A DNA stretch of 64,000 nt, from contig CBDFLF010000001.1 of assembly GCA_965249075.1 (NCBI GenBank), forward strand, positions 693,017 to 757,016, read 5' to 3'. Source of the stretch: an uncultured Methylophilus sp. (GTDB taxonomy: Bacteria > Pseudomonadota > Gammaproteobacteria > Burkholderiales > Methylophilaceae). Below, one piece after another: positions 235-29,523 of the stretch (its first letter is position 1; every line of letters begins with the position of its first letter). The notes under the pieces were generated by a model. It was given only the letters and a program-made list of their open reading frames with translations, did no database searches and had not been told where the DNA came from. The translations under genes were made by a program, and so were the position numbers.

Positions 235-2406
235 TTAGATTTTTTCGAGTTTGGCATACTCCAGCATCAAAGTTTTCAAGCCCTCACGGCCAAAATTCAC
301 TTTAATCGCCAAGTCACTGGCATTGCCTTCATAACTCACCACCACGCCATCGCCAAATTTGGCATGACGCACGCTTTGGCCAATTTTAAAAGGGTAACTG
401 CTTTGTGCGCTGGCAGGCTGAGCGACTTGGTAATGCCCACCTGCGGCATAGCTTTTTGCCACAGGCTTGCTGTTAAGGCGCTTGATGAGGGCGTCTGGGA
501 TTTCATCCACAAAGCGCGAAGGGATGCCATAACGCACTTGCCCATGCAACATACGACTTTGCGCGTGGGTTAAATACAAACGCCGACGCGCGCGCGTCAC
601 CGCTACATACATCAAGCGGCGTTCTTCTTCTAAGCCACCGTTTTCATAAGCCGATTGCTCGTGCGGAAACAAGCCTTCTTCCACGCCACTGATAAACACG
701 GTATGAAACTCCAAGCCTTTGGCGGCGTGCACCGTCATTAGTTGTAGCGCCTCACGCCCAACATCGGCTTGGTGTTCCCCTGCTTCCAAGCTGGCATGGT
801 TTAAAAATTGGGTGAGCAAATCGGCTTCTTCATCCACATTGTGGTGGTTGCCAAAATCTTGGTTGCTAAACGCCACCGCCGCCGTCACCAACTCTTCCAA
901 GTTAGCAATGCGGTCTTCGCCTTCTTTGTCATTTTCGTAATGGGCTTTTAGGCCAGACAGTTGCGTGACCAGCTCGACCATTTCCGACAAACTCACGCCA
1001 TACGCTTGATTGATGATTTCACGCATCAAGCCGACAAAACCTTCGATGCCTTTTGCGCCGACTTGTCCATTGCCGACTTTATTGATGGCGGCTTGCCATA
1101 AACTGCAATCTTGTGCGCGGGCGGATTCTTGCAACTGTTCTAAACTGCGTGCACCGATGCCACGGGTGGGGAAGTTGATGATGCGCAACAAAGCGGTGTC
1201 GTCATGCGCGTTGGCGATTAAACGCATATAGGCCATGGCGTGTTTGACTTCGGCGCGCTCAAAAAAGCGCAACCCGCCATAGACGCGATACGGAATGTTG
1301 GAAGCAAACAAGGTGTGCTCTAAAATCCGCGATTGCGCATTGCTACGATAAAGCAAGGCAATGTCGCCCAGCGCCACGCCCTCGTTTTGCAACATATTCA
1401 CTTCGTCGACTATAAATTGTGCTTCGTCGGTGTCGTTATACGCATCATAAATGCGAATCGGCTCGCCTTGGCCTTCCGAGGTCCACAGATTTTTGCCTAA
1501 TCGGTGCTGATTGTGGCTGATGATAGCGTTGGCGGCATCGAGAATATTGCTATGCGAGCGGTAGTTTTCTTCGAGTTTGACGATATTTTGCACATTAAAA
1601 TCTTGCTCAAAGTCACGCATATTGCCCACACGCGCACCACGAAAACCATAAATACTTTGGTCGTCGTCACCCACGGCAAACAAACTATTGTGCGCGCCTG
1701 CCAATAGCTTCAGCCACAGGTATTGCAGGCGATTGGTGTCTTGAAACTCATCGACCAAAATATACAAAAAGCGCTGTTGATAATGGGCGCGGATGTGTGG
1801 TTCGCGCTCTAGCAACTCATAACAACGCAACAACAACTCGGCAAAATCAGCCACGCCTTCGCGGTTACATTGCACATCATACGCTTCGTAAATCTCGCGC
1901 AATTTTTGGCTGTGTCCGTCATAAGCCTCTACCGCATGCGCGCGCATGCCCTCTTCTTTACAGCCGTTGATATAGCCTTGCACTTGCTTGGGTGGATATT
2001 TTTCATCATCCACATTCATCAACTTCATCACGCGTTTAATGGCAGAAAGCTGGTCAGCGGTATCGAGAATTTGAAAGGTGCTAGGCAAGCCTGCCTCGCG
2101 ATAATGGGCGCGCAACAAGCGGTTACACAAGCCGTGAAAAGTGCCCACCCACATGCCTCGCGTGTTAATCGGCAACATGCTGGTTAAGCGTGTGAGCATC
2201 TCTTTGGCGGCTTTGTTGGTAAACGTTACCGCCATCAAACCCATGGGCGAAACCTGCCCCGTTTGAATCAACCAAGCAATGCGCGTAGTCAACACGCGGG
2301 TTTTGCCACTACCCGCCCCCGCCAAAATCAGGCCAGATTGTTGTGGCAACGTCACTGCTTCGAGTTGTTTATTGTTGAGACCTGCTAATAATGATTCGCT
2401 ATCCAT
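235..2406 (-). CDS. uvrD: DNA helicase II (UvrD/PcrA superfamily 1)
   Basis: Walker A AGAGSGKT, motifs TFTNKAA, DEFQD, VGDDDQSIY, LEENYRS, TVHAAKGLEF, EEERRLMYVAVTRA and a C-terminal Tudor-like tail. Start placed at ATG 2406 (MDSESLLAGLN) rather than the ORF-track start 2520. Confidence 0.97.
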   Translation of the reverse strand: MDSESLLAGLNNKQLEAVTLPQQSGLILAGAGSGKTRVLTTRIAWLIQTGQVSPMGLMAVTFTNKAAKEMLTRLTSMLPINTRGMWVGTFHGLCNRLLRAHYREAGLPSTFQILDTADQLSAIKRVMKLMNVDDEKYPPKQVQGYINGCKEEGMRAHAVEAYDGHSQKLREIYEAYDVQCNREGVADFAELLLRCYELLEREPHIRAHYQQRFLYILVDEFQDTNRLQYLWLKLLAGAHNSLFAVGDDDQSIYGFRGARVGNMRDFEQDFNVQNIVKLEENYRSHSNILDAANAIISHNQHRLGKNLWTSEGQGEPIRIYDAYNDTDEAQFIVDEVNMLQNEGVALGDIALLYRSNAQSRILEHTLFASNIPYRVYGGLRFFERAEVKHAMAYMRLIANAHDDTALLRIINFPTRGIGARSLEQLQESARAQDCSLWQAAINKVGNGQVGAKGIEGFVGLMREIINQAYGVSLSEMVELVTQLSGLKAHYENDKEGEDRIANLEELVTAAVAFSNQDFGNHHNVDEEADLLTQFLNHASLEAGEHQADVGREALQLMTVHAAKGLEFHTVFISGVEEGLFPHEQSAYENGGLEEERRLMYVAVTRARRRLYLTHAQSRMLHGQVRYGIPSRFVDEIPDALIKRLNSKPVAKSYAAGGHYQVAQPASAQSSYPFKIGQSVRHAKFGDGVVVSYEGNASDLAIKVNFGREGLKTLMLEYAKLEKI

Positions 2407-2548
2407 AGCGTTATTATCGCATGCGTGCATCCAAAGCCGTGAAAAAATCACGCAAACTATCACGCATAAAATCACGCAAGTGTGGGAACTAAAACAAGAC
2501 GGAATTGCTCTTACTTGCATGATGAATAATGCGATGCATGATTCATCT

Positions 2549-2632
2549 TTCCGCTTCTTTCCTCCCTGAGCGGAAGCCTTTACGATGAGGCTATTTCACC
2601 CCGATTTACTCCCCTTAATCGGGGTTTTTTTT
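2549..2632 (+). ncRNA. Candidate small RNA: three hairpins ending in an intrinsic terminator, two loops carrying CU-rich anti-SD motifs
   Basis: TTCCGCT(2549-2555)/AGCGGAA(2569-2575) with loop TCTTTCCTCCCTG; GCCT/AGGC hairpin 2576-2591; CCCCGATT(2599-2606)/AATCGGGG(2617-2624) with loop TACTCCCCTT, followed by T8. No plus-strand CDS precedes this plus-strand terminator. Confidence 0.55.
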
Positions 2633-2676
2633 GCCTATTTAAAACGTGTTTTTTAGAAGGCTTAAAGACTATAGAT

Positions 2677-4089
2677 TTAGAAACCAGGGTGCATCAACTG
2701 TTCCATACACTGCCTTATCGCAGGAATCGCTTGTTGTGATTGTGGCAAATGGCGAGTCAGCTTAGCCATCATGGCCAAGGCATTGCTCGGCTCTTGTTTG
2801 GCGCAATAGACTTCTATTAAATTACTCAGCGCGATACTCGGATTTTGCGCACGCTGAATGGCCTGCTCAAACAAAAACACGGCATCTTCCAAATTGCCTT
2901 CCGCAAACACGATACCGCCTAAATCGTTATAGACATGCCAGCATTGGGTTTTGGCTTGCACCAGCGGAATGAGTATGCGCATCGCTTCGACTTGTTGACC
3001 ACGGGCAATCAATGACTCTGCTAATTGATATACTTCATAATCTTTATCTACTTGCGCAGAAACAGGCGCATGCGGCAACGCTAGCCCTTGCAAGGCCGCT
3101 TCAAGGTTATCCATGATGGCAACGGCACTCTCGCCCAAGCATGAAAACTGATGTGCGCGCTGTGTTTGTACATCGGCTTGGTATTGCTGTTTGTTGTCTA
3201 AAATGGCTTGCACGGCCGTGGTCAAATCCACCTTGGTGGTTTTGGTCACATAGTCGTAAGGTACGCTGGCTGGTCGCGGCGGATCTTGGTCAGGAATCAA
3301 CCAATCTGTCACCGCCACGCCTGGCACATCTAATAAAAGCGCTTCGGTTAATACGCTAGATTCATCAGACACCATGACATCGGCCAAGCCCAAGCAATAC
3401 ATGATGCTGATTTCCGGATCGATGATATACACATTATCGGCACAGCCTTGATGCAAGGCGTTCATGGCGTGAATGTTGTCCCACACTTGGGTGTAACTCG
3501 GCGACCAAGGGGCTTGTTTTAACAGCAAGTTCACAGGCAAATGCTTGAGTGCTTGCACAAAGTCATCTTGCTTGCCGTGGTTTTCCCATGAAGGCGCATA
3601 TAACACGGATTGCGCGTGTTTCAACCCCAGCTGGGCGCGCAAAGTTTCGGCCTCTTGCTTAAAGTGGGCTTTGTTACGAAACACCAAATCGGCCTTGGGC
3701 CAGCCTAATTCAAACACGCCCAACTTAGGACGGGCATAGCTAAAGCCTGCTTGCGTTTGCCAGCGCTCCACCCATGCTTGCCCTGGCAAAATGCCCATGT
3801 CAAACGCCTGCCAAGGCTCATAATGCCAAAATTGTGGCCAAATATCATGGCGTTGCGCTAAGTCGTGCAACAAGATAATAGAAAAATCTGCATTGGGCTT
3901 GCAGGCATGCTCACAATACACACCTATCTCGGCACGTTGTTGACTGTTCATGCTCCACAATACATTAAACCCACGTTTTTCCGCCTCGTCGGCAATCGGC
4001 GCAATCGCTTGACGCTCGCAATTGTCGGTATAAAAAAAGGTGATGCTGGGGTTGAGATTGGATTTCTGGGTGGCGGTGGAAGTGGACAT
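2677..4089 (-). CDS. TagF/CDP-glycerol phosphotransferase-like (CMP/CDP-donor GT-B) transferase fused to C-terminal TPRs
   Basis: LGWPKAD, VLYAPSWE and ADVMVSDESSVLTEALLLDVP resemble the PF04464 motifs GYPRxD, LYAPTWR and DxLITDYSSvxxdxxllxkP. Residues ~351-465 are TPR-like (YNDLGGIVFAEGNLEDAVFLFEQAIQRAQNPSIALSNL). Last gene of the pepM operon. Confidence 0.7.
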   Translation of the reverse strand: MSTSTATQKSNLNPSITFFYTDNCERQAIAPIADEAEKRGFNVLWSMNSQQRAEIGVYCEHACKPNADFSIILLHDLAQRHDIWPQFWHYEPWQAFDMGILPGQAWVERWQTQAGFSYARPKLGVFELGWPKADLVFRNKAHFKQEAETLRAQLGLKHAQSVLYAPSWENHGKQDDFVQALKHLPVNLLLKQAPWSPSYTQVWDNIHAMNALHQGCADNVYIIDPEISIMYCLGLADVMVSDESSVLTEALLLDVPGVAVTDWLIPDQDPPRPASVPYDYVTKTTKVDLTTAVQAILDNKQQYQADVQTQRAHQFSCLGESAVAIMDNLEAALQGLALPHAPVSAQVDKDYEVYQLAESLIARGQQVEAMRILIPLVQAKTQCWHVYNDLGGIVFAEGNLEDAVFLFEQAIQRAQNPSIALSNLIEVYCAKQEPSNALAMMAKLTRHLPQSQQAIPAIRQCMEQLMHPGF

Positions 4090-4098
4090 CTTTGAATC

Positions 4099-4839
4099 CT
4101 ATTTTTTCAAAATCACACTAAAGCGAAAATCGCGTTGCGCGTAGTTGGGGATGCAACTGGTAAATACTGTTTTTTCAGAGACAGCAAACGCATCAAACCA
4201 GCTTACGTCATAATAAGTATGTGCATAACCCGCGTATTTTTCGTCATACTCGGCTTGCGTCATATTGGCAGAGGCCGCTTCACGACGTAAGGCCTCGCAG
4301 GCTTGCTTAGTGGCTAAGTTAGGCACATCGAGCACCGCCACCGCAACACGCGCTTTGGCGAGCATGGCAGTCAGCACCTGTTTGGCGTAAGGCAAATCAA
4401 AGTAATGAAACACACTGTTGGCAATCACCACGTCATATTGTGGCGTGGTAGCGAGAGCAAGCGCTTCAGCCACAGCAAAATCACCCTCTGGCATGGCGTG
4501 TTGCGCCGCTTCTATCAGGCCCGAGCTGTAATCCAATCCACCGACTTCTAGGTCGCGCACTTGTTGCAATGCGTACAAAAACGCGCCAGCACCGCAACCC
4601 ACTTCATAGACGCTATTGCCATCTTGCAAGTGCAATTTGTCAGCGATTAATTGTGCATAGTCCTGCCAATCTTCTGGTGCAATACGTCCTGCTCCGCTGT
4701 CAAAACCATCCAGCGCAATCAAGGCGGCTAAGTCGAGTGGTGCTTGCGTTTCTCTACGCCGCTTTTCCCACACCCCATGCCAGTGATTGGCTGTTGCAGG
4801 GGCTGTAGAGGGGCTTAAGTGCTGAGTGTGTGTCGTCAT
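4099..4839 (-). CDS. Class I SAM-dependent methyltransferase, probable N-methyltransferase
   Basis: Motif I VYEVGCGAG, motif II GLDYS, post-II YDVVIANSVFHYF. Start overlaps the upstream gene's stop by 4 nt. Confidence 0.85.
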   Translation of the reverse strand: MTTHTQHLSPSTAPATANHWHGVWEKRRRETQAPLDLAALIALDGFDSGAGRIAPEDWQDYAQLIADKLHLQDGNSVYEVGCGAGAFLYALQQVRDLEVGGLDYSSGLIEAAQHAMPEGDFAVAEALALATTPQYDVVIANSVFHYFDLPYAKQVLTAMLAKARVAVAVLDVPNLATKQACEALRREAASANMTQAEYDEKYAGYAHTYYDVSWFDAFAVSEKTVFTSCIPNYAQRDFRFSVILKK

Positions 4840-5285
4840 ACTTTACTTTCTAAGGTTTGCGCCACCGCTTGCAACACCTTGCCTCTTAAATAACTGCTAC
4901 TGACCCCTTCGGTGCGAGGCAACACATGCAAACGTGTTGGGGAAATCGGATTACTGTTGTCATGACCATGCACCAACAAATCAATCTGGTGGGCGTCTAA
5001 AAAGTCTTCTTCTATCAGCCACGGGCAAGGTACGATTTCATCTACATAGCGAATCGCGGACAGTATTTCGTGTCGCTGCGCGTAGTTCAGCTCAGGTTCA
5101 TAGCCTTTTTTAAGTTTAATTTCCTCATCAGTGGTGAGCGCGACGATGACTTTGCCAAGTGCGTGCGCGGCTTTGAGTAAACGGATGTGGCCGTGATGAA
5201 TCAGGGTGGCAGACATATCCACCATGATGCGTTTTTCTTGGTGAGAGTGAGGCTGAGAGCGATTTAGTTGTGAGGGTGCGTGCAT
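4836..5285 (-). CDS. Standalone HxGH-type cytidylyltransferase (TagD/glycerol-3-phosphate cytidylyltransferase-like)
   Basis: DMSATLIHHGHIRLL (HxGH), VIVALTTDE, KKG, RHEILSAIRYVDEIVP and VHGHD match the CTP_transf_like family layout. Confidence 0.88.
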   Translation of the reverse strand: MHAPSQLNRSQPHSHQEKRIMVDMSATLIHHGHIRLLKAAHALGKVIVALTTDEEIKLKKGYEPELNYAQRHEILSAIRYVDEIVPCPWLIEEDFLDAHQIDLLVHGHDNSNPISPTRLHVLPRTEGVSSSYLRGKVLQAVAQTLESKV

Positions 5286-5290
5286 GATAA

Positions 5291-6280
5291 TTACCCTATG
5301 CTGAGTGCGTTTAAAATCTCGGCTTGCGCCAGCGCACCCAAATGCGCTTCACCCAAGTGGCAGACCACACTACCTTGTTGCATACCCCGTGGTTGGTATA
5401 ACACCGCACGCGCATCAGCACTGCTCACTCTGGCATTGACCCAGGTGCATAAATTGGGTTGATGGGTGCTAGGACGCGTCTCGTAATCAGCAATGCGTTT
5501 TAAAAAAGCCGCTTTGTTAATCATCACCGCCTGTTTGAAATGCGCATGTTGTGGCAACACTTCATATAGCGAGCAAATAGCATGGTAAGGCCCTGTCATG
5601 CGTTTTTCGACATGGCTTTGCATGTCTAGATAAAACGAATCGACAGCCACGGTAGGTGGTTGATAATAGGCAATAAAAGCCGCCCCTGTGAGACCAAACA
5701 GGCCTTTGCAAGAGCTGTAAGCAATCACATCGGCTAGGTGGTGGTCGGGTTCTAGGCCTATCGAGGCGGTGGCATCTAACAACACTTTGGCCTGACAGCG
5801 TTGCGCCAATGCGTGTAAATCTTGCATAGGCAATTTAAGGCCAACACTGGTTTCGGTGTAACAAGCGACTATCCAATCAAACGCGGTGTTGATGGTGTTT
5901 AGACTTTGCCAATCGCAAACTTGCACCGACTGCACTTGTGCATATTGGCGCATGGCTGACTCCGCCAACGCTTGTAAGCGGGCTGAGTAGTAACCTGTTT
6001 GCACCACCAACACACGGCCATACAAAAAATTGAGGCTGGCGATTTCCAGTGCCAATGTCGCTGAACCTTGCAAACGGACAATATGTGCATGGCCTGTCAT
6101 CTGCTGTAGCGCACTCATCACAGATTGCTCTACATGGTCATAATCGGCATCACCACGGCCAAAACTGGGACGTAAGCCATATAAGTTTTCAGGGAGTAAA
6201 CTAGCCGGCCCTGCCGTGTATAAGAATTTATCTTGGTTGCGCTGACTGACTAGCGCTTGAATGGAAGCAGTGGCCGTCAT
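5291..6280 (-). CDS. Class V PLP aminotransferase, 2-aminoethylphosphonate transaminase-like (AepZ/PhnW-like), divergent
   Basis: YTAGPA, GSATLALE, CYTETSVG, LLDATASIG and the PLP-lysine motif SSCKGLFG. Lies directly after phosphonopyruvate decarboxylase. Confidence 0.8.
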   Translation of the reverse strand: MTATASIQALVSQRNQDKFLYTAGPASLLPENLYGLRPSFGRGDADYDHVEQSVMSALQQMTGHAHIVRLQGSATLALEIASLNFLYGRVLVVQTGYYSARLQALAESAMRQYAQVQSVQVCDWQSLNTINTAFDWIVACYTETSVGLKLPMQDLHALAQRCQAKVLLDATASIGLEPDHHLADVIAYSSCKGLFGLTGAAFIAYYQPPTVAVDSFYLDMQSHVEKRMTGPYHAICSLYEVLPQHAHFKQAVMINKAAFLKRIADYETRPSTHQPNLCTWVNARVSSADARAVLYQPRGMQQGSVVCHLGEAHLGALAQAEILNALSIG

Positions 6281-7470
6281 ATTGGCTCCCGCGTAACTTC
6301 GTGATGTGCGACATAGTGAATGCTCACTTGCTCAACAAAGTCCATGAATGCTTGTTTATTTTGCGCAGGCGTGCGGTCAGGCCGCCCCAAGTCTTCACGC
6401 GCGCCACATTTGCAAAGCACTTCAATAAAGCAACTACCATCGTAGGTAAGGGCTTCAAGCAAAGACGCTTTGACTTCAAAAATGGTGCGGGCGTTTAGAC
6501 ACAATCCATAACCACAAGCCTTGGCAATCTCGGTTAAATCGTGGCCTTTTGCCAACGTGGGTTGCCCGCCGACTGAATCATGTGCGCCATTGTTAATCAC
6601 CACATGAATCAAATTATCTTGCTTGGCGCTCAATAACAAACTGCCCATATGCATGAGCATGGCGCCATCCCCATCCAAACACAGCACTTTTCGGCGTGGC
6701 ATTTGCATGGCAATGCCGCAAGCAATTTGCGAGGCATGGCCCATGCCACCCACCGTTAAAAAGTCTTGTCCAGCATTGCGGTGCCCTTGTGCTTTACGGT
6801 ATTCGTGCAACTCGCGCGATGCCATGCCCGTGGTCGCCACCACAGGCACGTCTTCTGGCAGTACTTGCATCAGCGATGTAATCACTGTCTCACGGCTGAG
6901 CAGATTGATGATTGGGTTAGCATTGATATTTGTAGATACGAATTTAGCAAACGTCTGTTTGCGTACCAATAAGGCGACTGGGCCTTGTCGGGCTTCTGCT
7001 TGTGCGATGAGCGATTGCAACAACTTTGCAATATCTGTCGTTTGCGCATCAATGATTTGGTAAGGAATATCCAATAACTGCAACTGTTGTTCTGTCACTT
7101 GCCCTTGCTTGACATGCTGAGGCTCATCGTGTATTTGCTGGCCATCCGCTTGCATCTCGCCACGCCAACCCACCATCAATAGCATGGGCACACCGACCAC
7201 TTGCGGGTCAACCAAAGAGGTGATGGGGTTCACAATATTGCCCAAACCTGAGTTTTGCATATACACCAGCGCAGGTTGGCACGTGGCTAAATAATGCCCC
7301 AAGGCCAAAGCAACCGCCGCCCCTTCATTGGTGGCAATCACATGGTCATCGCTGGGCAAGTTTTGCGTGAAACAAGCACACACTTCCTTGAGCAAAGAGT
7401 CTGGCACACCAGTGACAAAACGGATGCCAGCTTGTGTCAGTGCGTGGGTAAAATCGTTAGGTGCGATCAT
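6277..7470 (-). CDS. aepY: Phosphonopyruvate decarboxylase (ThDP-dependent)
   Basis: TGVPDSLLK, NEGAAVALALGHYLAT, VYMQNSGLGN, EPQHVKQG, TTGMASREL, DFLTVGGMGHASQIA, ThDP motif DGDGAMLMHMG...NNGAHDSVGGQPT, and LGRP. Confidence 0.96.
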   Translation of the reverse strand: MIAPNDFTHALTQAGIRFVTGVPDSLLKEVCACFTQNLPSDDHVIATNEGAAVALALGHYLATCQPALVYMQNSGLGNIVNPITSLVDPQVVGVPMLLMVGWRGEMQADGQQIHDEPQHVKQGQVTEQQLQLLDIPYQIIDAQTTDIAKLLQSLIAQAEARQGPVALLVRKQTFAKFVSTNINANPIINLLSRETVITSLMQVLPEDVPVVATTGMASRELHEYRKAQGHRNAGQDFLTVGGMGHASQIACGIAMQMPRRKVLCLDGDGAMLMHMGSLLLSAKQDNLIHVVINNGAHDSVGGQPTLAKGHDLTEIAKACGYGLCLNARTIFEVKASLLEALTYDGSCFIEVLCKCGAREDLGRPDRTPAQNKQAFMDFVEQVSIHYVAHHEVTREPI

Positions 7471-7476
7471 GTTGCT

Positions 7477-8778
7477 CTACCTTGTACCAGGAATCAAAGC
7501 CAATACATCATTAATCGGCATCAAACTACTATCCACCTCGGCAGAACGGCCATTACGCAAAATCTCGCGAGCCACATGTTGCATGGCAGGGTAAGCAGCG
7601 CGTAATAAATGGTTGGCATAAATCACCAAATTAAAGCCATGCTCTGCCAACTCATCCTCGGTAGACTGACTGTAACTAGTCGGCACACACACCAAAGGCA
7701 CGTCAGGAAACTCGTCTTTAAAAGTATCGGCAAACTCATACACTTCAGCAGGCGATTTTTGGCGACTATGAATCATAATGCCGTCAACGCCTGCGCCCAC
7801 ATAGGCTTGCGCACGGGTAATGGCATCTTTCATGCCTTTTTCCAAAATCAGGCTCTCAATACGCGCAATCACCATAAAATCTTCGCTTACGCGGGCCGCG
7901 CGACCAGCAATAATCTTGTCGCAAAATGGCTCAATATCATCTTGCAACTGCGCCACCTCATTGCCAAATAAAGAATTCTTTTTTAAGCCTATCTTGTCTT
8001 CAATAATGGTCGCCGAAATCCCTAAACGCTCCATACTGCGCACGTTCAGTTCAAAATGTTCTAACTTGCCACCTGTATCTGCATCCATGATGAGCGGTTT
8101 GGTGGTCACATCAAAAATATCATTAATATTCGAAAGACGACTATTGATTTCCACCGCCTCAATATCAGGCTTCCCACGCGCCGTTGAATCAGTCAGTGAG
8201 CTCGACCAAAAGCCATCAAACTGGCAAGTTTTACCATTACGCTCCGCCGTCACATGCTCGGCAATCAAAGCAGAAATAGGGTTATGCGCTTCGATAAAGC
8301 GTGAAATCGGTTTAGCGGCGAGCAAACGTTTTAATGTGCGACGACGAATATCGGGCGTGGTGCCCAAAGCCTGCATTTGCCCGAGCATTTCGTTAGAAGA
8401 CACCCCACGTGTATAAGGAATCTCAATCAAATGACCGCCATACTCAGACAAAGCCTCACGCGCGCGCTCACGATAAGGCAACAACGGGCCATCTAACCAA
8501 TCGTCACCATGCACCATAATGTCAGGTTTGTATTTGCGTAAATTAGGCGCGTAATCCCATTCATCTTGTGGCACGACGTTCACCACCCCACGAATATTTT
8601 CAACAATGTGTTTACGATGCTCAAAGCTGAGATAAGGCAAACGCTTGTGGTCAGCCACGGCGGCATCTGAAAGCAAGCCTATCGTCACCTCGCCATACTT
8701 GCGTGCTTGCTCAATGATATTAATATGCCCATGGTGAAGAATATCCATGGTCATGCCCACATAAACAGAATTCGTCAT
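7477..8778 (-). CDS. aepX: Phosphoenolpyruvate mutase with N-terminal cytidylyltransferase domain
   Basis: Diagnostic PepM motif EDKIGLKKNS (EDKxxxxxNS), plus EAHNPISA, WSSSLTDS, DADTGG and ARIESLI. The N-terminal ~130 aa carry DILHHGH and VHGDDW. Confidence 0.98.
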   Translation of the reverse strand: MTNSVYVGMTMDILHHGHINIIEQARKYGEVTIGLLSDAAVADHKRLPYLSFEHRKHIVENIRGVVNVVPQDEWDYAPNLRKYKPDIMVHGDDWLDGPLLPYRERAREALSEYGGHLIEIPYTRGVSSNEMLGQMQALGTTPDIRRRTLKRLLAAKPISRFIEAHNPISALIAEHVTAERNGKTCQFDGFWSSSLTDSTARGKPDIEAVEINSRLSNINDIFDVTTKPLIMDADTGGKLEHFELNVRSMERLGISATIIEDKIGLKKNSLFGNEVAQLQDDIEPFCDKIIAGRAARVSEDFMVIARIESLILEKGMKDAITRAQAYVGAGVDGIMIHSRQKSPAEVYEFADTFKDEFPDVPLVCVPTSYSQSTEDELAEHGFNLVIYANHLLRAAYPAMQHVAREILRNGRSAEVDSSLMPINDVLALIPGTR

Positions 8779-8943
8779 CTGCCCGACCTTTCCTTACAAT
8801 CGGCTTTAAAACAAAGCCTATGATTGATATTTGGAATAATTATGGGCTATGAGGCTAGAGATAGATTGCGCAAATAAAGCAAGAAAAGTGGCTTATATCA
8901 GACACCAGCGTATCACAACAATTATCGCCAGAAATAGCACAAC

Positions 8944-8967
8944 AAAAAACCCGCCGAAGCGGGTTTT
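8944..8967 (-). terminator. Intrinsic terminator of the FKBP gene
   Basis: Minus strand reads AAAACCCGC-TTCG-GCGGGTTTTTT, 26 nt past the stop at 8994. Confidence 0.85.
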
Positions 8968-8993
8968 AGTCTGATTAAAATAGATATACGGTA

Positions 8994-9744: not shown

Positions 9745-10056
9745 TTATTTTTCATGTTTTTTTCTAGATTCTGCCTCTATGGCTCGTAAACTGTAATTTG
9801 ATTCTGTCGGTTCCTTTGATTTTCGATTTAAGAAAGCATAAATCAATAATGCAGGCACTAGGCCAAACAAACCAAATAACAACCATAAAAAACCGCCCAT
9901 CTGACCTGCAGCAAGGACAGGGCCTATGGCGCCACAAGCAGAGGATGCACCAGCACCCTCGTCAACGGTACAGCCCGGAATTAATGCAGCAATCCCAAAA
10001 GATAAAAGCATGATACAAAAGGGCAGTAAAAGTGCAAGGTAATAATATAGTCGCAT
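9745..10056 (-). CDS. Small hypothetical two-TM membrane protein
   Basis: Two hydrophobic segments flank the loop PGCTVDEGAGASSACG; basic/charged C-terminus. GAAGAA purine run upstream. No family recognised. Confidence 0.6.
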   Translation of the reverse strand: MRLYYYLALLLPFCIMLLSFGIAALIPGCTVDEGAGASSACGAIGPVLAAGQMGGFLWLLFGLFGLVPALLIYAFLNRKSKEPTESNYSLRAIEAESRKKHEK

Positions 10057-26380: not shown

Positions 26381-26737
26381 GGCGTATTCTGAAATTACTC
26401 TTTTTATTTGTTCATCTACGTTAATAAGACGGCAATACTGCGATGCAAGAAAAATGCCATTTGTGAGCTTACATACCATTCGCTAAATATTATGCCAAAC
26501 AAACAACCAGAAAAATAAACTAAGTGATTGATTATAATTACATTAATTACAAATAAACACTATTTTTATAAGCGATTTAGCAAACCGTATTTCACCGTAT
26601 TTCTTAGGCGCACCAATAGACTAGCCAAGAATATCGCACAAAAAGTGTGCATTTTTCAACACATTTCTTTCATCGCTGACGCGATATCCCATCGGGCGCA
26701 ATGCGACTGCTTAATAATTCATGGGATAATATCGCAC

Positions 26738-28708
26738 ATGTCCGTCAATCAAACCACGCCTGTAATCCACACCTCACCGCTTGCACATCAAGTCGCACAA
26801 GCCTTTGATAGCAATGGCGCGTTAGCGGAAAGCATTACTGGTTTTCATGTGCGCGCACAACAAATTGAGATGGCGCAGGCCATTGCCCTTGCCATTGCGC
26901 AACAAACGCAATTGGTGGCCGAAGCGGGCACGGGCACGGGTAAAACGTTTGCCTACTTAGTACCCGCCCTGCTGTCTGGTGGCAAAGTCATCGTTTCCAC
27001 AGGCACAAAAACCCTACAAGACCAATTATTTAACCGCGACTTGCCCAATGTGCGCGAGGCGCTCAAAGTGCCTGTGAGCGTGAGCATGCTGAAAGGCCGC
27101 GCCAACTATATCTGCCACTACCATTTACAACGCGCCAGTGTTGAAGGCCGTTTTCAATCACGCGATGACGCGCAATACATTCCCATTATTCAAGCGTTTG
27201 CAGAGCATAGCAAAACGGGCGACAAAGCGGAGCTAACCGATGTCCCCGAAAATGCCACGGTTTGGCAAAGCGTTACCAGCACACGTGATAACTGCTTGGG
27301 GCAAGACTGCCAACATTACAAAGAATGCTTTGTAATGGAAGCGCGCAAACAAGCACTGGCTGCCGATGTGGTGGTGGTCAATCACCATTTGTTTTTTGCT
27401 GATGTGATGTTGCGCGATGAAGGGGTGGCCGAGCTGTTGCCCAGCGCCAATACCGTCATTTTTGACGAGGCACACCAACTGCCTGAAGTGGCTGGGCTAT
27501 TTTTTGGCGAAGATATTTCCACCAGCTTGCTGATGGATGTGGCGCGCGACACCACGATTGCCTATCTAAGTGCCGCCAAAGATTGTGTGGCTTTAGATGA
27601 CAGCGCCAAAAAACTAGAAAAAGCCTGCCGTGATTTTAGATTGGTGTTTAAGTTTGAAGGCTCGCGCATGCCCGCGCAAAAAGCACTCAGCTTGCCCAAC
27701 TTTGAATCTGCTTACACTGAGATGCAAGAAGCTTTAAGGGCCTTGAGTGCTGTGTTAGAAACCCAAGCCGCCCGCGACCCCATGCTAGAAAAATGCTGGC
27801 AACGCGCCGAACTCTTACTCGCACAACTGGATAGCTGGATGAAAGCCAGCAATCCCAATCTCGTGCGCTGGGTGGAAGTGTTTACGCAAAGTGTGCAACT
27901 ACACGCCACACCACTCAGTGTTGCGGATGGCTTTGGCAAACAACTCAATGCGCAACCAAGGGCTTGGATTTTCACCTCCGCCACACTGGCCGTCAAAAGT
28001 GATTTTAGCCACTACATTGGGCAAATGGGTTTAAATAACGCCACCACAGGCTTTTGGGAAAGCCCCTTTAATTACGGCGAGCAAGCGCTACTCTACGCGC
28101 CACAAAATATGCCTGACCCCAACTCGCCTGCCTACACCGCTGCGGTCGCCGCCATCAGTGTGCCCGTCATCCAAGCCAGCCAAGGCCGTGCCTTTGTGCT
28201 GTGTACCTCACTCAAAGCCATGCGCGAAGTCCATGCCCTGCTCAAAGAAGCCTTTGCGCAAGCGGGCATGGAGTACCCCCTGCTCATGCAAGGCGAAAGC
28301 ACACGCACTGAGCTGCTCGACCGTTTCCGTAGCCACGGCAATGCGGTGCTGGTCGGCTCACAAAGCTTTTGGGAAGGCGTCGATGTCCGTGGCGAAGCCC
28401 TCTCCTGCGTCATCATCGACAAACTCCCGTTTGCCCCGCCCGACGACCCCGTGTTATCTGCCCGCATTGATAAAATGAACCAAGAAGGCAAAAATGCGTT
28501 TATGGAATATCAACTGCCTTATTCCGTGATTACCCTCAAACAAGGCGCTGGCCGATTGATACGCGACGAAAACGACCGTGGCGTGTTGGTGATTTGCGAC
28601 CCGCGCTTGATTAGCAAACCTTATGGCAGACGCATTTGGCAAAGCTTGCCACCGTTTAGTCGCACCAAAGAGCTTAGCGATGTGGAAGCGTTTTTTGAAA
28701 CTCATTGA
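26738..28708 (+). CDS. ATP-dependent DNA helicase, DinG/YoaA family
   Basis: AEAGTGTGKT, LKGRANYIC (Fe-S), VVNHHLF, DEAH, TSATL, FWEGVDV, QGAGRLIR. Start placed at ATG 26738. Confidence 0.94.
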   Translation: MSVNQTTPVIHTSPLAHQVAQAFDSNGALAESITGFHVRAQQIEMAQAIALAIAQQTQLVAEAGTGTGKTFAYLVPALLSGGKVIVSTGTKTLQDQLFNRDLPNVREALKVPVSVSMLKGRANYICHYHLQRASVEGRFQSRDDAQYIPIIQAFAEHSKTGDKAELTDVPENATVWQSVTSTRDNCLGQDCQHYKECFVMEARKQALAADVVVVNHHLFFADVMLRDEGVAELLPSANTVIFDEAHQLPEVAGLFFGEDISTSLLMDVARDTTIAYLSAAKDCVALDDSAKKLEKACRDFRLVFKFEGSRMPAQKALSLPNFESAYTEMQEALRALSAVLETQAARDPMLEKCWQRAELLLAQLDSWMKASNPNLVRWVEVFTQSVQLHATPLSVADGFGKQLNAQPRAWIFTSATLAVKSDFSHYIGQMGLNNATTGFWESPFNYGEQALLYAPQNMPDPNSPAYTAAVAAISVPVIQASQGRAFVLCTSLKAMREVHALLKEAFAQAGMEYPLLMQGESTRTELLDRFRSHGNAVLVGSQSFWEGVDVRGEALSCVIIDKLPFAPPDDPVLSARIDKMNQEGKNAFMEYQLPYSVITLKQGAGRLIRDENDRGVLVICDPRLISKPYGRRIWQSLPPFSRTKELSDVEAFFETH

Positions 28709-28719
28709 AGGCAGAACCT

Positions 28720-29523
28720 ATGAGTACACCCGAGATTATTTATAAATACCAAAACTTTAATTCTGAGAGCCTTCAAAACCTAAAAGCTCAATCACTCTAT
28801 TTTAGTTCACCACTTAAATTTAACGACCCATACGATTGTGCAGTTTCTGCGACCGTTAAAGAATTAACTGACAAAGAGATTAATCTTATTCGTGATGCCT
28901 ACATCAAAAAAGCAGATGTGCCATCAGAAATTAAACAGCAACTGTCCATAGCAAGCAATGAAAAATTAAAAGCAATGTTTACTAATATTGCTGAAAGTGT
29001 AGTAGTTAATCATCGAGATGATTTTCTGAAAAATAGAGGCGTTACGTGTTTCTCTGAAAGAAATGATGACCTGCTGATGTGGTCTCATTACGGTGGTAAA
29101 TATAAGGGATTTTGTTTGGCATTCTCAACGAAATTTGAACCGTTTAATAAGATGAAAAAAGTAGAATATCAAGTGGATATGCCTAAATTAGATTTAGTGC
29201 CTATACTAGCTGAAGATGATTATGAACAATTAATACAACTTTTTTTCATAAAATCAAAGTCTTGGAATTATGAGAAAGAGTGGCGAAGCTTACATCAGAA
29301 GGCTGGAACTTTATTTACATATGAAATGGACGCTTTGAAAGCTGTATATTTTGGTCCTGATATTGATCCTCAATCTTTGGAAATTATCTGTTTAATATTA
29401 AAGGGGCAGAATGATAAAGTTGAATTCTGGCAAGGAACAAGAAGCGTTGATAAGTTTGAAGTTAACTTTCAAAAGTTTGATTACACAACTTATCTAGAGG
29501 CAAAGAAACTTGGTCTTAGATAG
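28720..29523 (+). CDS. DUF2971-like protein (AT-rich)
   Basis: IYKY, FNDPYD, CFSE, MWSHYG...GFC, KSKSWNYEKEWR, YFG. Visibly more AT-rich than flanking genes. Confidence 0.82.
   Translation: MSTPEIIYKYQNFNSESLQNLKAQSLYFSSPLKFNDPYDCAVSATVKELTDKEINLIRDAYIKKADVPSEIKQQLSIASNEKLKAMFTNIAESVVVNHRDDFLKNRGVTCFSERNDDLLMWSHYGGKYKGFCLAFSTKFEPFNKMKKVEYQVDMPKLDLVPILAEDDYEQLIQLFFIKSKSWNYEKEWRSLHQKAGTLFTYEMDALKAVYFGPDIDPQSLEIICLILKGQNDKVEFWQGTRSVDKFEVNFQKFDYTTYLEAKKLGLR

What the first reader, a model, noticed from the sequence alone, without database searches (positions are those of the whole stretch)
2677..8778. Complete phosphonate operon predicting a CMP-activated, methylated aminoethylphosphonate surface modification
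Seen: six contiguous minus-strand genes with 4-nt overlaps or 5-9 nt gaps. Order: cytidylyltransferase-PepM, Ppd, class V aminotransferase, second cytidylyltransferase, SAM methyltransferase, TagF-like transferase-TPR. Established: PepM (EDKxxxxxNS) makes phosphonopyruvate, Ppd gives phosphonoacetaldehyde, and AepZ-type transaminases give 2-aminoethylphosphonate (AEP), as in the Bacteroides fragilis aepXYZ polysaccharide locus. Cytidylyl activation is a common step before transfer to glycans or lipids. Inference: a self-contained make-activate-methylate-attach module whose product is N-methylated AEP, a hydrolysis-resistant C-P mimic of phosphoethanolamine/phosphocholine. The operon carries no polysaccharide polymerase, flippase or sugar genes and sits between uvrD and an FKBP gene with no mobility genes, so its acceptor is made elsewhere. 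I do not recognise this exact architecture as characterised. Best candidate for an undescribed system in the window.
Basis: partly seen in the sequence, partly recalled or inferred. Interest (0 to 1): 0.88.

Follow-up and report, generated by a model that had tools for sequence, protein, structure and literature searches.

The report
Methylated phosphonate glycan-tailoring cassette, probably flagellar
Six tightly packed genes in a Methylophilus-like bacterium encode everything needed to make a carbon-phosphorus compound (aminoethylphosphonate), activate it with CMP, methylate it and attach it to a sugar; in almost all relatives the same cassette sits beside the flagellin gene, so the decorated target is probably the sugar coat of the flagellum, a use of phosphonates I found in no paper.

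Summary
Six intact minus-strand genes (2677-8778) have 4-nt overlaps or 5-9-nt gaps. They encode a cytidylyltransferase-PepM fusion, Ppd, a short AEP-transaminase-like PLP enzyme, a second cytidylyltransferase, a class I SAM methyltransferase and a TagF-like transferase with C-terminal TPRs.

The make-activate-methylate-attach reading is reasonable but only partly tested. N-methylation is inferred. Several parts are already described, including PF01467-PepM fusions and clusters with two nucleotidyltransferases.

The new information is comparative. The same six genes in the same order occur in Methylophilus, Methylotenera, Dechloromonas and Pseudolabrys. In 15 of 16 long Methylophilaceae loci the cassette lies within 10 kb of flagellar filament genes (fliC-flaG-fliD-fliS). 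Related cassettes sit by flagellin or by Wzm/Wzt O-antigen exporters in other phyla.

The window and one 96-99% identical relative are the exception. Their cassette fills a variable slot between an FKBP gene and an anti-hemB sRNA/uvrD, and is under purifying selection.

The closest characterised analogue is C. difficile FtaABCD: a CDP-linked donor, an N-methyltransferase acting on it, and a TagF-like transfer onto the flagellin O-glycan.

Verdict: an uncharacterised phosphonate variant of a known kind of glycan tailoring. The acceptor in this organism is unproven.

The parts
8946..8967 (-). Intrinsic terminator of the upstream FKBP gene. It marks the upstream boundary of the operon. The promoter must lie in the about 165-nt spacer 8779-8945.
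   Evidence: 9-bp stem with 5 GC pairs, followed by a T-run. The sequence was read.
7477..8778 (-). Bifunctional cytidylyltransferase (residues about 1-135, Fom1-type CyTase) fused to PEP phosphomutase (residues about 148-433). It makes phosphonopyruvate from PEP.
   Evidence: PF01467 + PF13714. TIGR02320 410.9 bits against cut-off 319.55. EDKIGLKKNS at residue 260 and HHGH at residue 15. Best PDB match of the N-domain is the Fom1 CyTase 5x3d, E 2.4e-45. 84-90% identical across Methylophilaceae.
6277..7470 (-). Phosphonopyruvate decarboxylase (ThDP-dependent). It converts phosphonopyruvate to phosphonoacetaldehyde.
   Evidence: TIGR03297 443.9 bits against cut-off 312.5. TPP_enzyme_N and TPP_enzyme_C domains.
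5291..6280 (-). Short (about 330 aa) class V-fold PLP enzyme from a divergent AEP-transaminase-like subfamily. Inferred role: phosphonoacetaldehyde to 2-aminoethylphosphonate.
   Evidence: Best NCBIfam hit is PhnW-AepZ, but only 63.7 bits against cut-off 360.8. Best PDB hits are AEP transaminases: 7e7g at 1e-12 with the single sequence and 2.3e-17 with the family profile. Lys192 (SSCKG) and Asp169 are invariant in the family.
4836..5285 (-). Stand-alone cytidylyltransferase of the GCT/ECT type (CT2).
   Evidence: PF01467. Best PDB match is human ethanolamine-phosphate cytidylyltransferase 3elb, E 5.4e-23. HHGH at residue 30 and RTEGVSS at residue 124. Only 31% identical to the PepM-fused domain.
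4099..4839 (-). Class I SAM-dependent methyltransferase. Its family was found only inside PepM cassettes in every context examined. Inferred role: N-methylation of (CMP-)AEP.
   Evidence: Pfam Methyltransf_12/25/11. Motif I EVGCGAG at residue 79. AF2 model with pLDDT 93. Homologues examined in their genomic context all lie between the second nucleotidyltransferase and the TagF-like gene.
2677..4089 (-). TagF-like GT-B transferase (residues about 15-335) with a C-terminal TPR domain (about 346-466). Inferred role: transfer of the (methyl)aminoethylphosphonyl group from the CMP-linked donor to a sugar hydroxyl, releasing CMP.
   Evidence: PF04464 + TPR_19. The family profile hits Cps3D at 1.9e-8, TagF at 1.1e-6 and TarL. 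AF2 model with pLDDT 93.8. Top Foldseek hits are TagF 3l7k at 6.5e-11, Cps3D and TarL. Family motifs GWPKAD at 129, YAPSWE at 164 and SDESS at 241.

Best explanation
The operon is a self-contained phosphonate tailoring cassette that works in the cytoplasm.

Shown by strong homology:
- PepM converts PEP to phosphonopyruvate.
- Ppd pulls that unfavourable equilibrium forward by decarboxylation to phosphonoacetaldehyde.

Inferred:
- The short PhnW/AepZ-like PLP enzyme transaminates phosphonoacetaldehyde to 2-aminoethylphosphonate (AEP).
- A cytidylyltransferase makes CMP-AEP from CTP. This could be the ECT-like stand-alone CT2, the Fom1-type domain fused to PepM, or both.
- The class I methyltransferase N-methylates the amine. 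By analogy with FtaC it most likely acts on the CMP-linked intermediate.
- The TagF-like enzyme transfers the (methyl)aminoethylphosphonyl group to a hydroxyl of an acceptor sugar and releases CMP.
- The TPR domain docks the transferase on its protein or glycoprotein partner.

Most likely acceptor: the O-glycan of flagellin, which is modified in the cytoplasm before export. That would explain why no flippase, polymerase or sugar genes are needed.

In this genome the cassette has been moved out of the flagellar locus. It now fills a variable slot between the FKBP gene and the anti-hemB sRNA/uvrD pair, and it is still maintained by selection.
For: Enzymology:
- equivalog-level PepM and Ppd; all catalytic motifs present.
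- the third enzyme is nearest to AEP transaminases and keeps invariant Lys192 and Asp169.
- there are two distinct classes of cytidylyltransferase. One is Fom1-type (5x3d, 2.4e-45); the other is ECT-like (3elb, 5.4e-23). ECT's natural substrate, phosphoethanolamine, is the phosphate analogue of AEP.
- TagF-like by profile and by fold.
- none of the six proteins has a membrane-spanning segment.

Cassette conservation:
- the same six genes in the same order occur in Methylophilus, Methylotenera, Dechloromonas and Pseudolabrys.
- dN/dS is 0.02-0.39 for all six genes against the 96-99% identical relative L037.

Flagellar link:
- the cassette lies between fliC-flaG-fliD-fliS and a giant protein with TPR, GT41 and methyltransferase domains.
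- flagellar genes lie within 10 kb in 15 of 16 Methylophilaceae loci of at least 18 kb.
- related cassettes lie by flagellin or other flagellar filament genes (fliS, fliD) in Andreprevotia, Vogesella, Planktomarina, Niveibacterium, Nitrospira, Thiotrichales and Clostridia.

Precedent:
- C. difficile FtaC methylates CDP-threonine, and TagF-like FtaD transfers it to O-GlcNAc on FliC.
- AEP itself has been seen on the C. difficile flagellin glycan (PMC8861647).
Against: - In the window itself no flagellar gene is nearby (tblastn; Pfam). I could not establish whether this organism is flagellated.
- Related cassettes also sit next to Wzm/Wzt O-antigen exporters (Methyloglobulus, Accumulibacter, Pseudolabrys), in a nonulosonic-acid/capsule cluster, and in non-motile SAR11. 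The acceptor class is therefore not fixed.
- The transaminase-like protein scores far below the curated PhnW-AepZ cut-off (63.7 against 360.8), and its C-terminal domain does not align to solved AEP transaminases.
- What the methyltransferase methylates cannot be read from sequence or fold.
- The need for two cytidylyltransferases is unexplained.
- No chemistry, expression or phenotype data exist for any member.
Confidence: 0.6

Rival explanations
1. Same chemistry, different acceptor. The (methyl)AEP group decorates or caps a polysaccharide such as the O-antigen, a capsule or an exopolysaccharide made elsewhere in the genome. It could act as a chain-terminating cap read by a Wzt-type exporter, in the way the E. 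coli O9a methyl-phosphate cap works (this comparison is from my own knowledge).
For: Related cassettes lie directly after Wzm and Wzt (with a Wzt_C domain) in Methyloglobulus, Accumulibacter and Pseudolabrys, and inside a NeuB/Capsule_synth cluster in Desulfonatronum. The window cassette has left the flagellar locus.
Against: The window's TagF-like protein carries the TPR domain. That domain was seen in the flagellar-locus forms (Methylophilaceae, Vogesella) and not in the Wzm/Wzt-linked forms (394 aa in Accumulibacter; alignment ending near residue 365 in Pseudolabrys). Its nearest relatives (62-67% identity) all lie in flagellar loci.
Confidence: 0.25
2. The methyltransferase does not N-methylate AEP. 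It might O-methylate the phosphonate after transfer to give a methyl phosphonate ester, C-methylate, or methylate the acceptor sugar. The attached group would then be plain AEP or a different derivative.
For: Profile and fold searches match only the generic class I core, and the hits mix N-, O- and C-methyltransferases. Cassettes without this methyltransferase exist (SAR11 L024 and Fibrobacteria L022; Accumulibacter L119), so methylation is an optional add-on.
Against: The gene lies between CT2 and the transferase with a 4-nt overlap, and its family was found only inside PepM cassettes. Several of the better sequence matches are amine N-methyltransferases: plant phosphoethanolamine N-methyltransferases, BamL and CalS10. 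FtaC sets a precedent for N-methylation of a CDP-linked amine.
Confidence: 0.2
3. The product is a phosphonolipid head group or a free small-molecule phosphonate (a fosfomycin-like or dehydrofosmidomycin-like natural product), not a glycan decoration.
For: The PepM-fused domain is closest to the Fom1 CyTase of fosfomycin biosynthesis. Burkholderiales clusters predicted to make phosphonolipids also carry two cytidylyltransferases (PMC8942020). N-methylated AEP is an intermediate of dehydrofosmidomycin (PMC9296572).
Against: There is no CDP-alcohol phosphatidyltransferase, oxygenase, radical-SAM enzyme, exporter or resistance gene in the operon. The last enzyme has a TagF-type fold. Its neighbours in other genomes are glycan or flagellar genes.
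Confidence: 0.07

Closest known systems
C. difficile FtaABCD (CD0241-CD0244) and P. aeruginosa PA1088-PA1091, flagellin post-glycosylation modification
   Same: The logic is the same: make a small zwitterionic unit, activate it on cytidine nucleotide, N-methylate it with a small class I SAM methyltransferase acting on the nucleotide-linked intermediate (FtaC), and transfer it with a soluble TagF-like enzyme (FtaD) to the O-glycan of flagellin. The genes lie beside fliC. In relatives of the window, the cassette is also beside fliC.
   Different: The unit here is a phosphonate (AEP, made by PepM, Ppd and a transaminase), not phosphothreonine made by a ThrH-like enzyme. The activating enzymes here are PF01467 cytidylyltransferases, whereas FtaB is modelled on GDP-mannose pyrophosphorylase. 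The donor would be a CMP-phosphonate rather than a CDP-phosphate. The transferase here carries a TPR domain. In the window the cassette is not beside fliC.
Bacteroides fragilis aepXYZ (AEP on capsular polysaccharide B)
   Same: PF01467-PepM fusion (AepX), Ppd (AepY) and a class V transaminase (AepZ) make AEP for a glycan (PMC8942020).
   Different: The B. fragilis genes lie in a large polysaccharide locus. The window cassette adds a second cytidylyltransferase, a methyltransferase and a TagF-like/TPR transferase, and its transaminase belongs to a short divergent subfamily.
PntC phosphonyl-tailoring cytidylyltransferase systems (Atopobium rimae, Olsenella uli, Treponema denticola)
   Same: AEP is activated as CMP-AEP before attachment to the cell surface. 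Clusters carry both a Ppm-fused and a free nucleotidyltransferase (PMC6697681).
   Different: The characterised PntCs are LicC-like PF12804 enzymes, and their clusters carry LicD-like phosphotransferases or glycosyltransferases. The window has PF01467 enzymes and a TagF-like transferase. Versions of the same cassette with PF12804 enzymes do exist (Andreprevotia, Vogesella, Accumulibacter).
Fom1 (Streptomyces fosfomycin pathway)
   Same: The domain order is the same: N-terminal CyTase fused to PepM. The N-domain is the window protein's best PDB match (5x3d, E 2.4e-45). Cytidylylation precedes a methylation step.
   Different: Fom1 acts on 2-hydroxyethylphosphonate. The methylation there is a radical-SAM C-methylation (Fom3), and the product is a free antibiotic (PMC6697681, for the Fom1 activity and pathway; the radical-SAM C-methylation by Fom3 is from my own knowledge).
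TagF/TarL/Cps3D teichoic-acid and capsule polymerases
   Same: GT-B fold and shared sequence motifs around the donor site. These enzymes transfer a substituted phosphoryl group from a CDP-linked donor with release of CMP.
   Different: The window protein consists only of a small catalytic core plus TPRs. Motifs are altered: GYPRND becomes GWPKAD, YAPTWR becomes YAPSWE and DYSS becomes DESS. The acidic substitutions may suit an ammonium-bearing donor, which is an inference. Nothing suggests polymerisation.

Membership tests
PEP phosphomutase (PepM/Ppm) | EDKxxxxxNS active-site motif | tested here: met
   EDKIGLKKNS at residue 260.
PEP phosphomutase (PepM/Ppm) | Score above the curated equivalog cut-off (TIGR02320) | tested here: met
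   410.9 bits against cut-off 319.55.
Phosphonopyruvate decarboxylase (Ppd) | Score above the curated equivalog cut-off (TIGR03297), with ThDP N- and C-domains | tested here: met
   443.9 bits against cut-off 312.5. PF02776 + PF02775.
AEP transaminase (PhnW/AepZ, TIGR03301) | Score above the curated cut-off | tested here: not met
   63.7 bits against cut-off 360.8. The protein is about 40 residues shorter than PhnW, and its C-terminal domain does not align to solved AEP transaminases.
AEP transaminase (PhnW/AepZ, TIGR03301) | PLP-binding lysine and the aspartate that pairs with the pyridine nitrogen | tested here: met
   Lys192 (SSCKG) aligns with the Schiff-base lysine of 7e7g and 1m32, and Asp169 aligns with their DAMSS aspartate. 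Both are invariant in 26 family members.
GCT-type cytidylyltransferase (PF01467) | HxGH and RTxGIS(T)T nucleotide-binding motifs | tested here: met
   Fused domain: HHGH at residue 15 and TRGVSS near residue 122. CT2: HHGH at residue 30 and RTEGVSS at residue 124.
PntC as characterised (Rice 2019) | LicC-like PF12804 fold | tested here: not met
   Both window enzymes are PF01467. They may work like PntC but are not members of that fold family.
PntC as characterised (Rice 2019) | Preference for AEP plus CTP as substrates | not testable with these tools
   Requires an enzyme assay.
TagF-like CDP-alcohol phosphotransferase (PF04464) | Pfam score above gathering threshold and GT-B TagF-like fold | tested here: met
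   24.6 bits against cut-off 22.1. Family profile against Cps3D 1.9e-8 and TagF 1.1e-6. Top Foldseek hits are TagF, Cps3D and TarL.
TagF-like CDP-alcohol phosphotransferase (PF04464) | Catalytic histidines (mutated in the TagF structures labelled H444N and H548A) | tested here: inconclusive
   Invariant His75-Asp76 follow a strand of the N-domain, but I could not superpose structures. The HMM alignment places no histidine opposite the TagF H548A mutation site.
FtaABCD-type flagellin post-glycosylation system | Located in the flagellar locus next to fliC | tested here: not met
   There are no flagellar genes in the 64-kb window. The criterion is met in 15 of 16 long Methylophilaceae loci and in several other taxa.
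FtaABCD-type flagellin post-glycosylation system | Sequence homology of the methyltransferase and transferase to FtaC and FtaD | not tested
   FtaC and FtaD sequences were not obtainable with the tools. Both FtaD and the window protein resemble TagF.
FtaABCD-type flagellin post-glycosylation system | Nucleotide-linked donor that is methylated and then transferred to a flagellin O-glycan | not testable with these tools
   Requires metabolite mass spectrometry and in vitro reconstitution.

The most novel reading that the evidence does not exclude
This cassette installs N-methyl-aminoethylphosphonate on the flagellin O-glycan. That would be the first dedicated phosphonate modification of a flagellum. 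Its TagF-like/TPR protein would be the long-missing CMP-phosphonate:glycan phosphonyl transferase. The system would be widespread, spanning Methylophilaceae, Nitrospira, Chromobacteriaceae-like betaproteobacteria and gut Lachnospiraceae. It could also explain where the AEP found on C. difficile flagellin comes from, since C. difficile has no pepM.
Probability: 0.4. Interest if true: 0.75.

Novelty: new variant of a known kind. Interest (0 to 1): 0.6.

Why it matters
Most bacterial phosphonate capacity is thought to go into cell-surface tailoring, yet the steps after CMP-AEP formation have no assigned enzymes (PMC6697681). This cassette offers two concrete, soluble and easily expressed candidates for those steps: a methyltransferase and a TagF-like transferase.

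Its position in relatives points to flagellin as a target for phosphonates, a link I found in no paper in the searchable library. If correct, it would:
- extend the newly defined CDP-linked flagellin modification chemistry of C. difficile and P. aeruginosa to C-P compounds;
- identify a phosphatase-resistant zwitterionic decoration on flagella of common freshwater methylotrophs, nitrifiers and gut Clostridia;
- add a protein-bound sink to the environmental phosphonate cycle.

Tried and rejected
1. Assigning what the methyltransferase methylates. The PDB sequence search, the family-profile search and Foldseek on a pLDDT-93 model returned only generic class I cores (TM-scores about 0.5-0.6) with mixed N-, O- and C-methyltransferases. 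No assignment was possible.

2. Using methyltransferase-TagF fusion proteins (P0162, P0197) as a Rosetta-stone link. BLASTP shows that their methyltransferase domains are not related to the window's methyltransferase. I dropped this as evidence.

3. Asking whether the window organism has flagellar genes. I laid contigs of run X1, which holds 98% of the operon's sampled words, on a Methylophilus flagellar locus. The run is a complex sample with mixed depths, so no attribution was possible.

4. Expression evidence. No run could be identified as RNA: the run type was not on record for any run returned.

5. A riboswitch or leader upstream of the operon. Rfam found nothing there. The only hit is the anti-hemB sRNA beyond the 3' end of the operon.

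6. Recent horizontal transfer into the window lineage. The cassette is about equally distant (54-68% identity for the five non-PepM proteins, CT2 up to 79%) from the Methylophilus and Methylotenera clades. That is similar to the distance between those two clades. GC content is unremarkable. Relocation within the family and replacement from outside cannot be told apart.

7. Literature searches for a pepM-flagellin link or for Methylophilus flagellin glycosylation. Nothing relevant was found apart from the C. difficile AEP observation.

Full report
**Observation**

The junctions are a 6-nt gap, a 4-nt overlap, a 5-nt gap, a 4-nt overlap and a 9-nt gap. A strong intrinsic terminator belonging to the upstream FKBP gene lies at 8946-8967. 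It is followed by a spacer of about 165 nt before the first start codon, so the operon has its own promoter region.

None of the six proteins has a hydrophobic stretch compatible with a membrane helix. GC content is unremarkable.

**What each gene is**

- **Gene 1 (7477-8778)** is a PF01467 cytidylyltransferase fused to PEP mutase.
  - It scores 410.9 bits on TIGR02320 (cut-off 319.55) and carries the diagnostic EDKIGLKKNS motif.
  - Its N-domain is closest to the CyTase domain of Fom1 (5x3d, E 2.4e-45).
- **Gene 2 (6277-7470)** is phosphonopyruvate decarboxylase (TIGR03297, 443.9 bits against cut-off 312.5).
- **Gene 3 (5291-6280)** is the least certain.
  - It falls far below the curated PhnW-AepZ cut-off (63.7 against 360.8).
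  - Its best PDB matches are nevertheless AEP transaminases: 7e7g at 1e-12 for the single sequence and 2.3e-17 for a family profile.
  - The Schiff-base lysine (K192 in SSCKG) and the PLP aspartate (D169) are invariant in the family.
  - It belongs to a large family of short (about 330 aa) proteins, with 1660 database hits, mostly unannotated.
- **Gene 4 (4836-5285)** is a second PF01467 enzyme.
  - It is only 31% identical to the fused domain.
  - Its best solved relative is human ethanolamine-phosphate cytidylyltransferase (3elb, 5.4e-23). That enzyme's substrate is the phosphate analogue of AEP.
  - Both cytidylyltransferases keep HxGH and the RTxGxS-type motifs.
- **Gene 5 (4099-4839)** is a class I SAM methyltransferase.
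  - Neither sequence nor a confident model (pLDDT 93) assigns what it methylates.
- **Gene 6 (2677-4089)** is TagF-like.
  - The evidence is Pfam (marginal), a family profile (Cps3D 1.9e-8, TagF 1.1e-6, TarL) and the predicted fold (pLDDT 93.8; top Foldseek hits TagF, Cps3D, TarL).
  - It has three and a half C-terminal TPRs.
  - TagF-family motifs are recognisable but altered: GWPKAD, YAPSWE and SDESS.

**The cassette elsewhere**

The organism is a member of the Methylophilaceae. Its uvrD is at most 86% identical to any Methylophilus genome in the collection.

The same six genes in the same order occur in Methylophilus, Methylotenera, a Dechloromonas MAG and a Pseudolabrys MAG. Partial or rearranged versions occur in Fibrobacteria, Ignavibacteriota and SAR11. 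A functionally equivalent version uses LicC-type PF12804 nucleotidyltransferases, again one fused to PepM and one free. It occurs in Andreprevotia, Vogesella, Niveibacterium and Accumulibacter.

Every methyltransferase homologue I examined in its genomic context lies in such a cassette.

**The flagellar link**

In Methylophilus rhizosphaerae and a Methylophilaceae MAG the cassette lies between fliC-flaG-fliD-fliS-fliT and a giant protein of about 2500 aa with TPR, GT41 (OGT-like) and methyltransferase domains. A tblastn survey shows the same layout across the family.

I then took a census of loci encoding the TagF-like subfamily:

| Group (loci of at least 18 kb) | PepM/Ppd | This methyltransferase | Flagellar genes within 10 kb | Wzm/Wzt |
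|---|---|---|---|---|
| Methylophilaceae (16) | 16 | 16 | 15 | 0 |
| Other taxa (32) | 19 | 11 | 11 | 4 |

- The other taxa with flagellar neighbours include Dechloromonas, Niveibacterium, Andreprevotia, Nitrospira, Thiotrichales and Clostridia.
- The marker proteins were proteobacterial, so the counts for Firmicutes are underestimates.
- Other contexts are a nonulosonic-acid/capsule cluster in Desulfonatronum, and Wzm/Wzt in Methyloglobulus and Accumulibacter.

The cassette is therefore a portable unit that plugs into glycoconjugate systems. In this bacterial family the system is the flagellin glycosylation island.

**The window is the exception**

Here, and in a 96-99% identical metagenomic relative (L037), the cassette lies between an FKBP gene and uvrD. 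No flagellar genes occur anywhere in the 64 kb.

Among 80 uvrD loci from the family, GroEL-(FKBP)-uvrD synteny is common and none carries the cassette. The slot is variable:
- L089 has FKBP-ung-uvrD.
- L038 has FKBP, an NRPS-like gene of 1401 aa, ung and uvrD.
- The window has no ung at all.

The downstream edge of the slot is a conserved anti-hemB sRNA (RF02837, window 2548-2632 on the plus strand). It is also present in L037, L038 and L089.

The relocated genes are under purifying selection, with dN/dS of 0.02-0.39 against L037. They keep every family-invariant residue.

The five non-PepM proteins are 54-68% identical (CT2 up to 79%) to those of both the Methylophilus and the Methylotenera clades, roughly equidistant from the two. 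Relocation within the family and replacement from outside cannot be distinguished.

**Mechanism**

Shown by strong homology: PEP to phosphonopyruvate to phosphonoacetaldehyde.

Inferred:
- Transamination to AEP.
- Cytidylylation to CMP-AEP.
- N-methylation.
- TagF-like transfer of the phosphonyl group to a sugar hydroxyl, with release of CMP.

All six proteins are soluble, and flagellin is glycosylated in the cytoplasm.

The order 'activate, then methylate, then transfer' is proposed by analogy with C. difficile. There FtaC methylates CDP-threonine, and the TagF-like FtaD transfers it to O-GlcNAc on FliC (bioRxiv 10.64898/2026.02.12.704994; PMC10714395).

Why two cytidylyltransferases are needed remains unexplained. 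The pairing is conserved across two unrelated enzyme folds and does not depend on the methyltransferase. It is also known from other phosphonate clusters (PMC6697681; PMC8942020).

**Comparison with what is known, and novelty**

Already described:
- PF01467-PepM fusions, which make up 23.6% of Ppm proteins and include B. fragilis AepX.
- CMP activation of AEP.
- Clusters with two nucleotidyltransferases.
- TagF-like transfer of a nucleotide-activated, N-methylated zwitterion to the flagellin glycan.
- AEP on the C. difficile flagellin glycan, although that species has no pepM (PMC8861647).

Not found in the searchable literature:
- This six-gene cassette.
- Its methyltransferase and transferase families.
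- Any link between pepM clusters and flagellar loci.

I therefore rate it a new variant of a known kind. The chemistry proposed is plausible but unproven for the methyl group. The acceptor can be narrowed to a testable hypothesis. The claim of an unrecognised architecture is only partly justified.

**Confidence**

- About 0.8 that this is a make-activate-modify-attach phosphonate cassette for a glycoconjugate.
- About 0.45-0.5 that the acceptor in this particular organism is the flagellin glycan.
- About 0.6-0.7 that the methyl group goes on the AEP nitrogen.

Noticed in passing
window 2548-2632 (+): An anti-hemB sRNA (Rfam RF02837, 57.6 bits against gathering score 49.5) with its own terminator lies between the end of the operon and uvrD. 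The same sRNA is conserved just upstream of uvrD in L037, L038 and L089, so it marks the fixed edge of the variable slot.
   Followed up: partly
window 2521-8993; L089 8990-10140; L038 4431-10010: The interval between the FKBP gene and the sRNA/uvrD pair is a variable cargo slot in Methylophilaceae. It holds ung in L089, an NRPS-like gene of 1401 aa plus ung in L038, and the phosphonate cassette in the window. No ung homologue was found anywhere in the 64-kb window.
   Followed up: partly
L035 12400-19911; L036 1-4638 and 12149-13882: Methylophilaceae flagellar loci encode giant proteins (about 2500 aa) that combine TPRs, two GT41 (OGT-like) domains and methyltransferase domains, next to short (about 270 aa) flagellins. 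These are presumably the flagellin glycosyltransferases that build the acceptor glycan.
   Followed up: partly
L016 16109-17788; L027 16541-18274; L119 11182-12966; inside the 2061-aa protein of L030: A conserved module of about 560-590 aa follows the TagF-like gene in many genomes. It has an N-terminal methyltransferase domain and about 370 residues with no Pfam match. In Methylophilus it forms the C-terminal part of the giant protein. It is absent from the window.
   Followed up: partly
L035 6139-7437 (= L001 10001-11290): In Methylophilus rhizosphaerae an in-frame stop, immediately followed by ATG, sits exactly at the linker between the cytidylyltransferase and PepM (G*MQALG, against GQMQALG in the window). 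This splits the fusion into two genes. All of the other Methylophilaceae loci checked are fused.
   Followed up: yes
L158-L196 (Roseburia, Eubacterium, Blautia and other Lachnospiraceae; Bacteroides intestinalis): Many gut Firmicutes encode the same TagF-like subfamily (39-51% identity), often with PepM/Ppd nearby and sometimes with fliC nearby. They are candidate producers of AEP-decorated glycans in the gut, where AEP was found on C. difficile flagellin although that species has no pepM.
   Followed up: partly
window 235-2520 (-): The uvrD ORF as listed (761 aa) begins with a hydrophobic, cysteine-rich stretch. Homologues align only from about residue 25-35 and the relative's gene call is 723 aa, so the true start is probably an internal codon.
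   Followed up: no
window 9745-10056 (-): A 103-aa ORF between GroEL and the FKBP gene has no Pfam match and a strongly hydrophobic N-terminus (Kyte-Doolittle 2.57), so it is possibly a small secreted or membrane protein.
   Followed up: no
window 26528-29523 (+): A DinG-like helicase (DEAD + Helicase_C_2, 726 aa) overlaps the start of a DUF2971 protein (272 aa). The function of the pair is not obvious, and it was not pursued.
   Followed up: no
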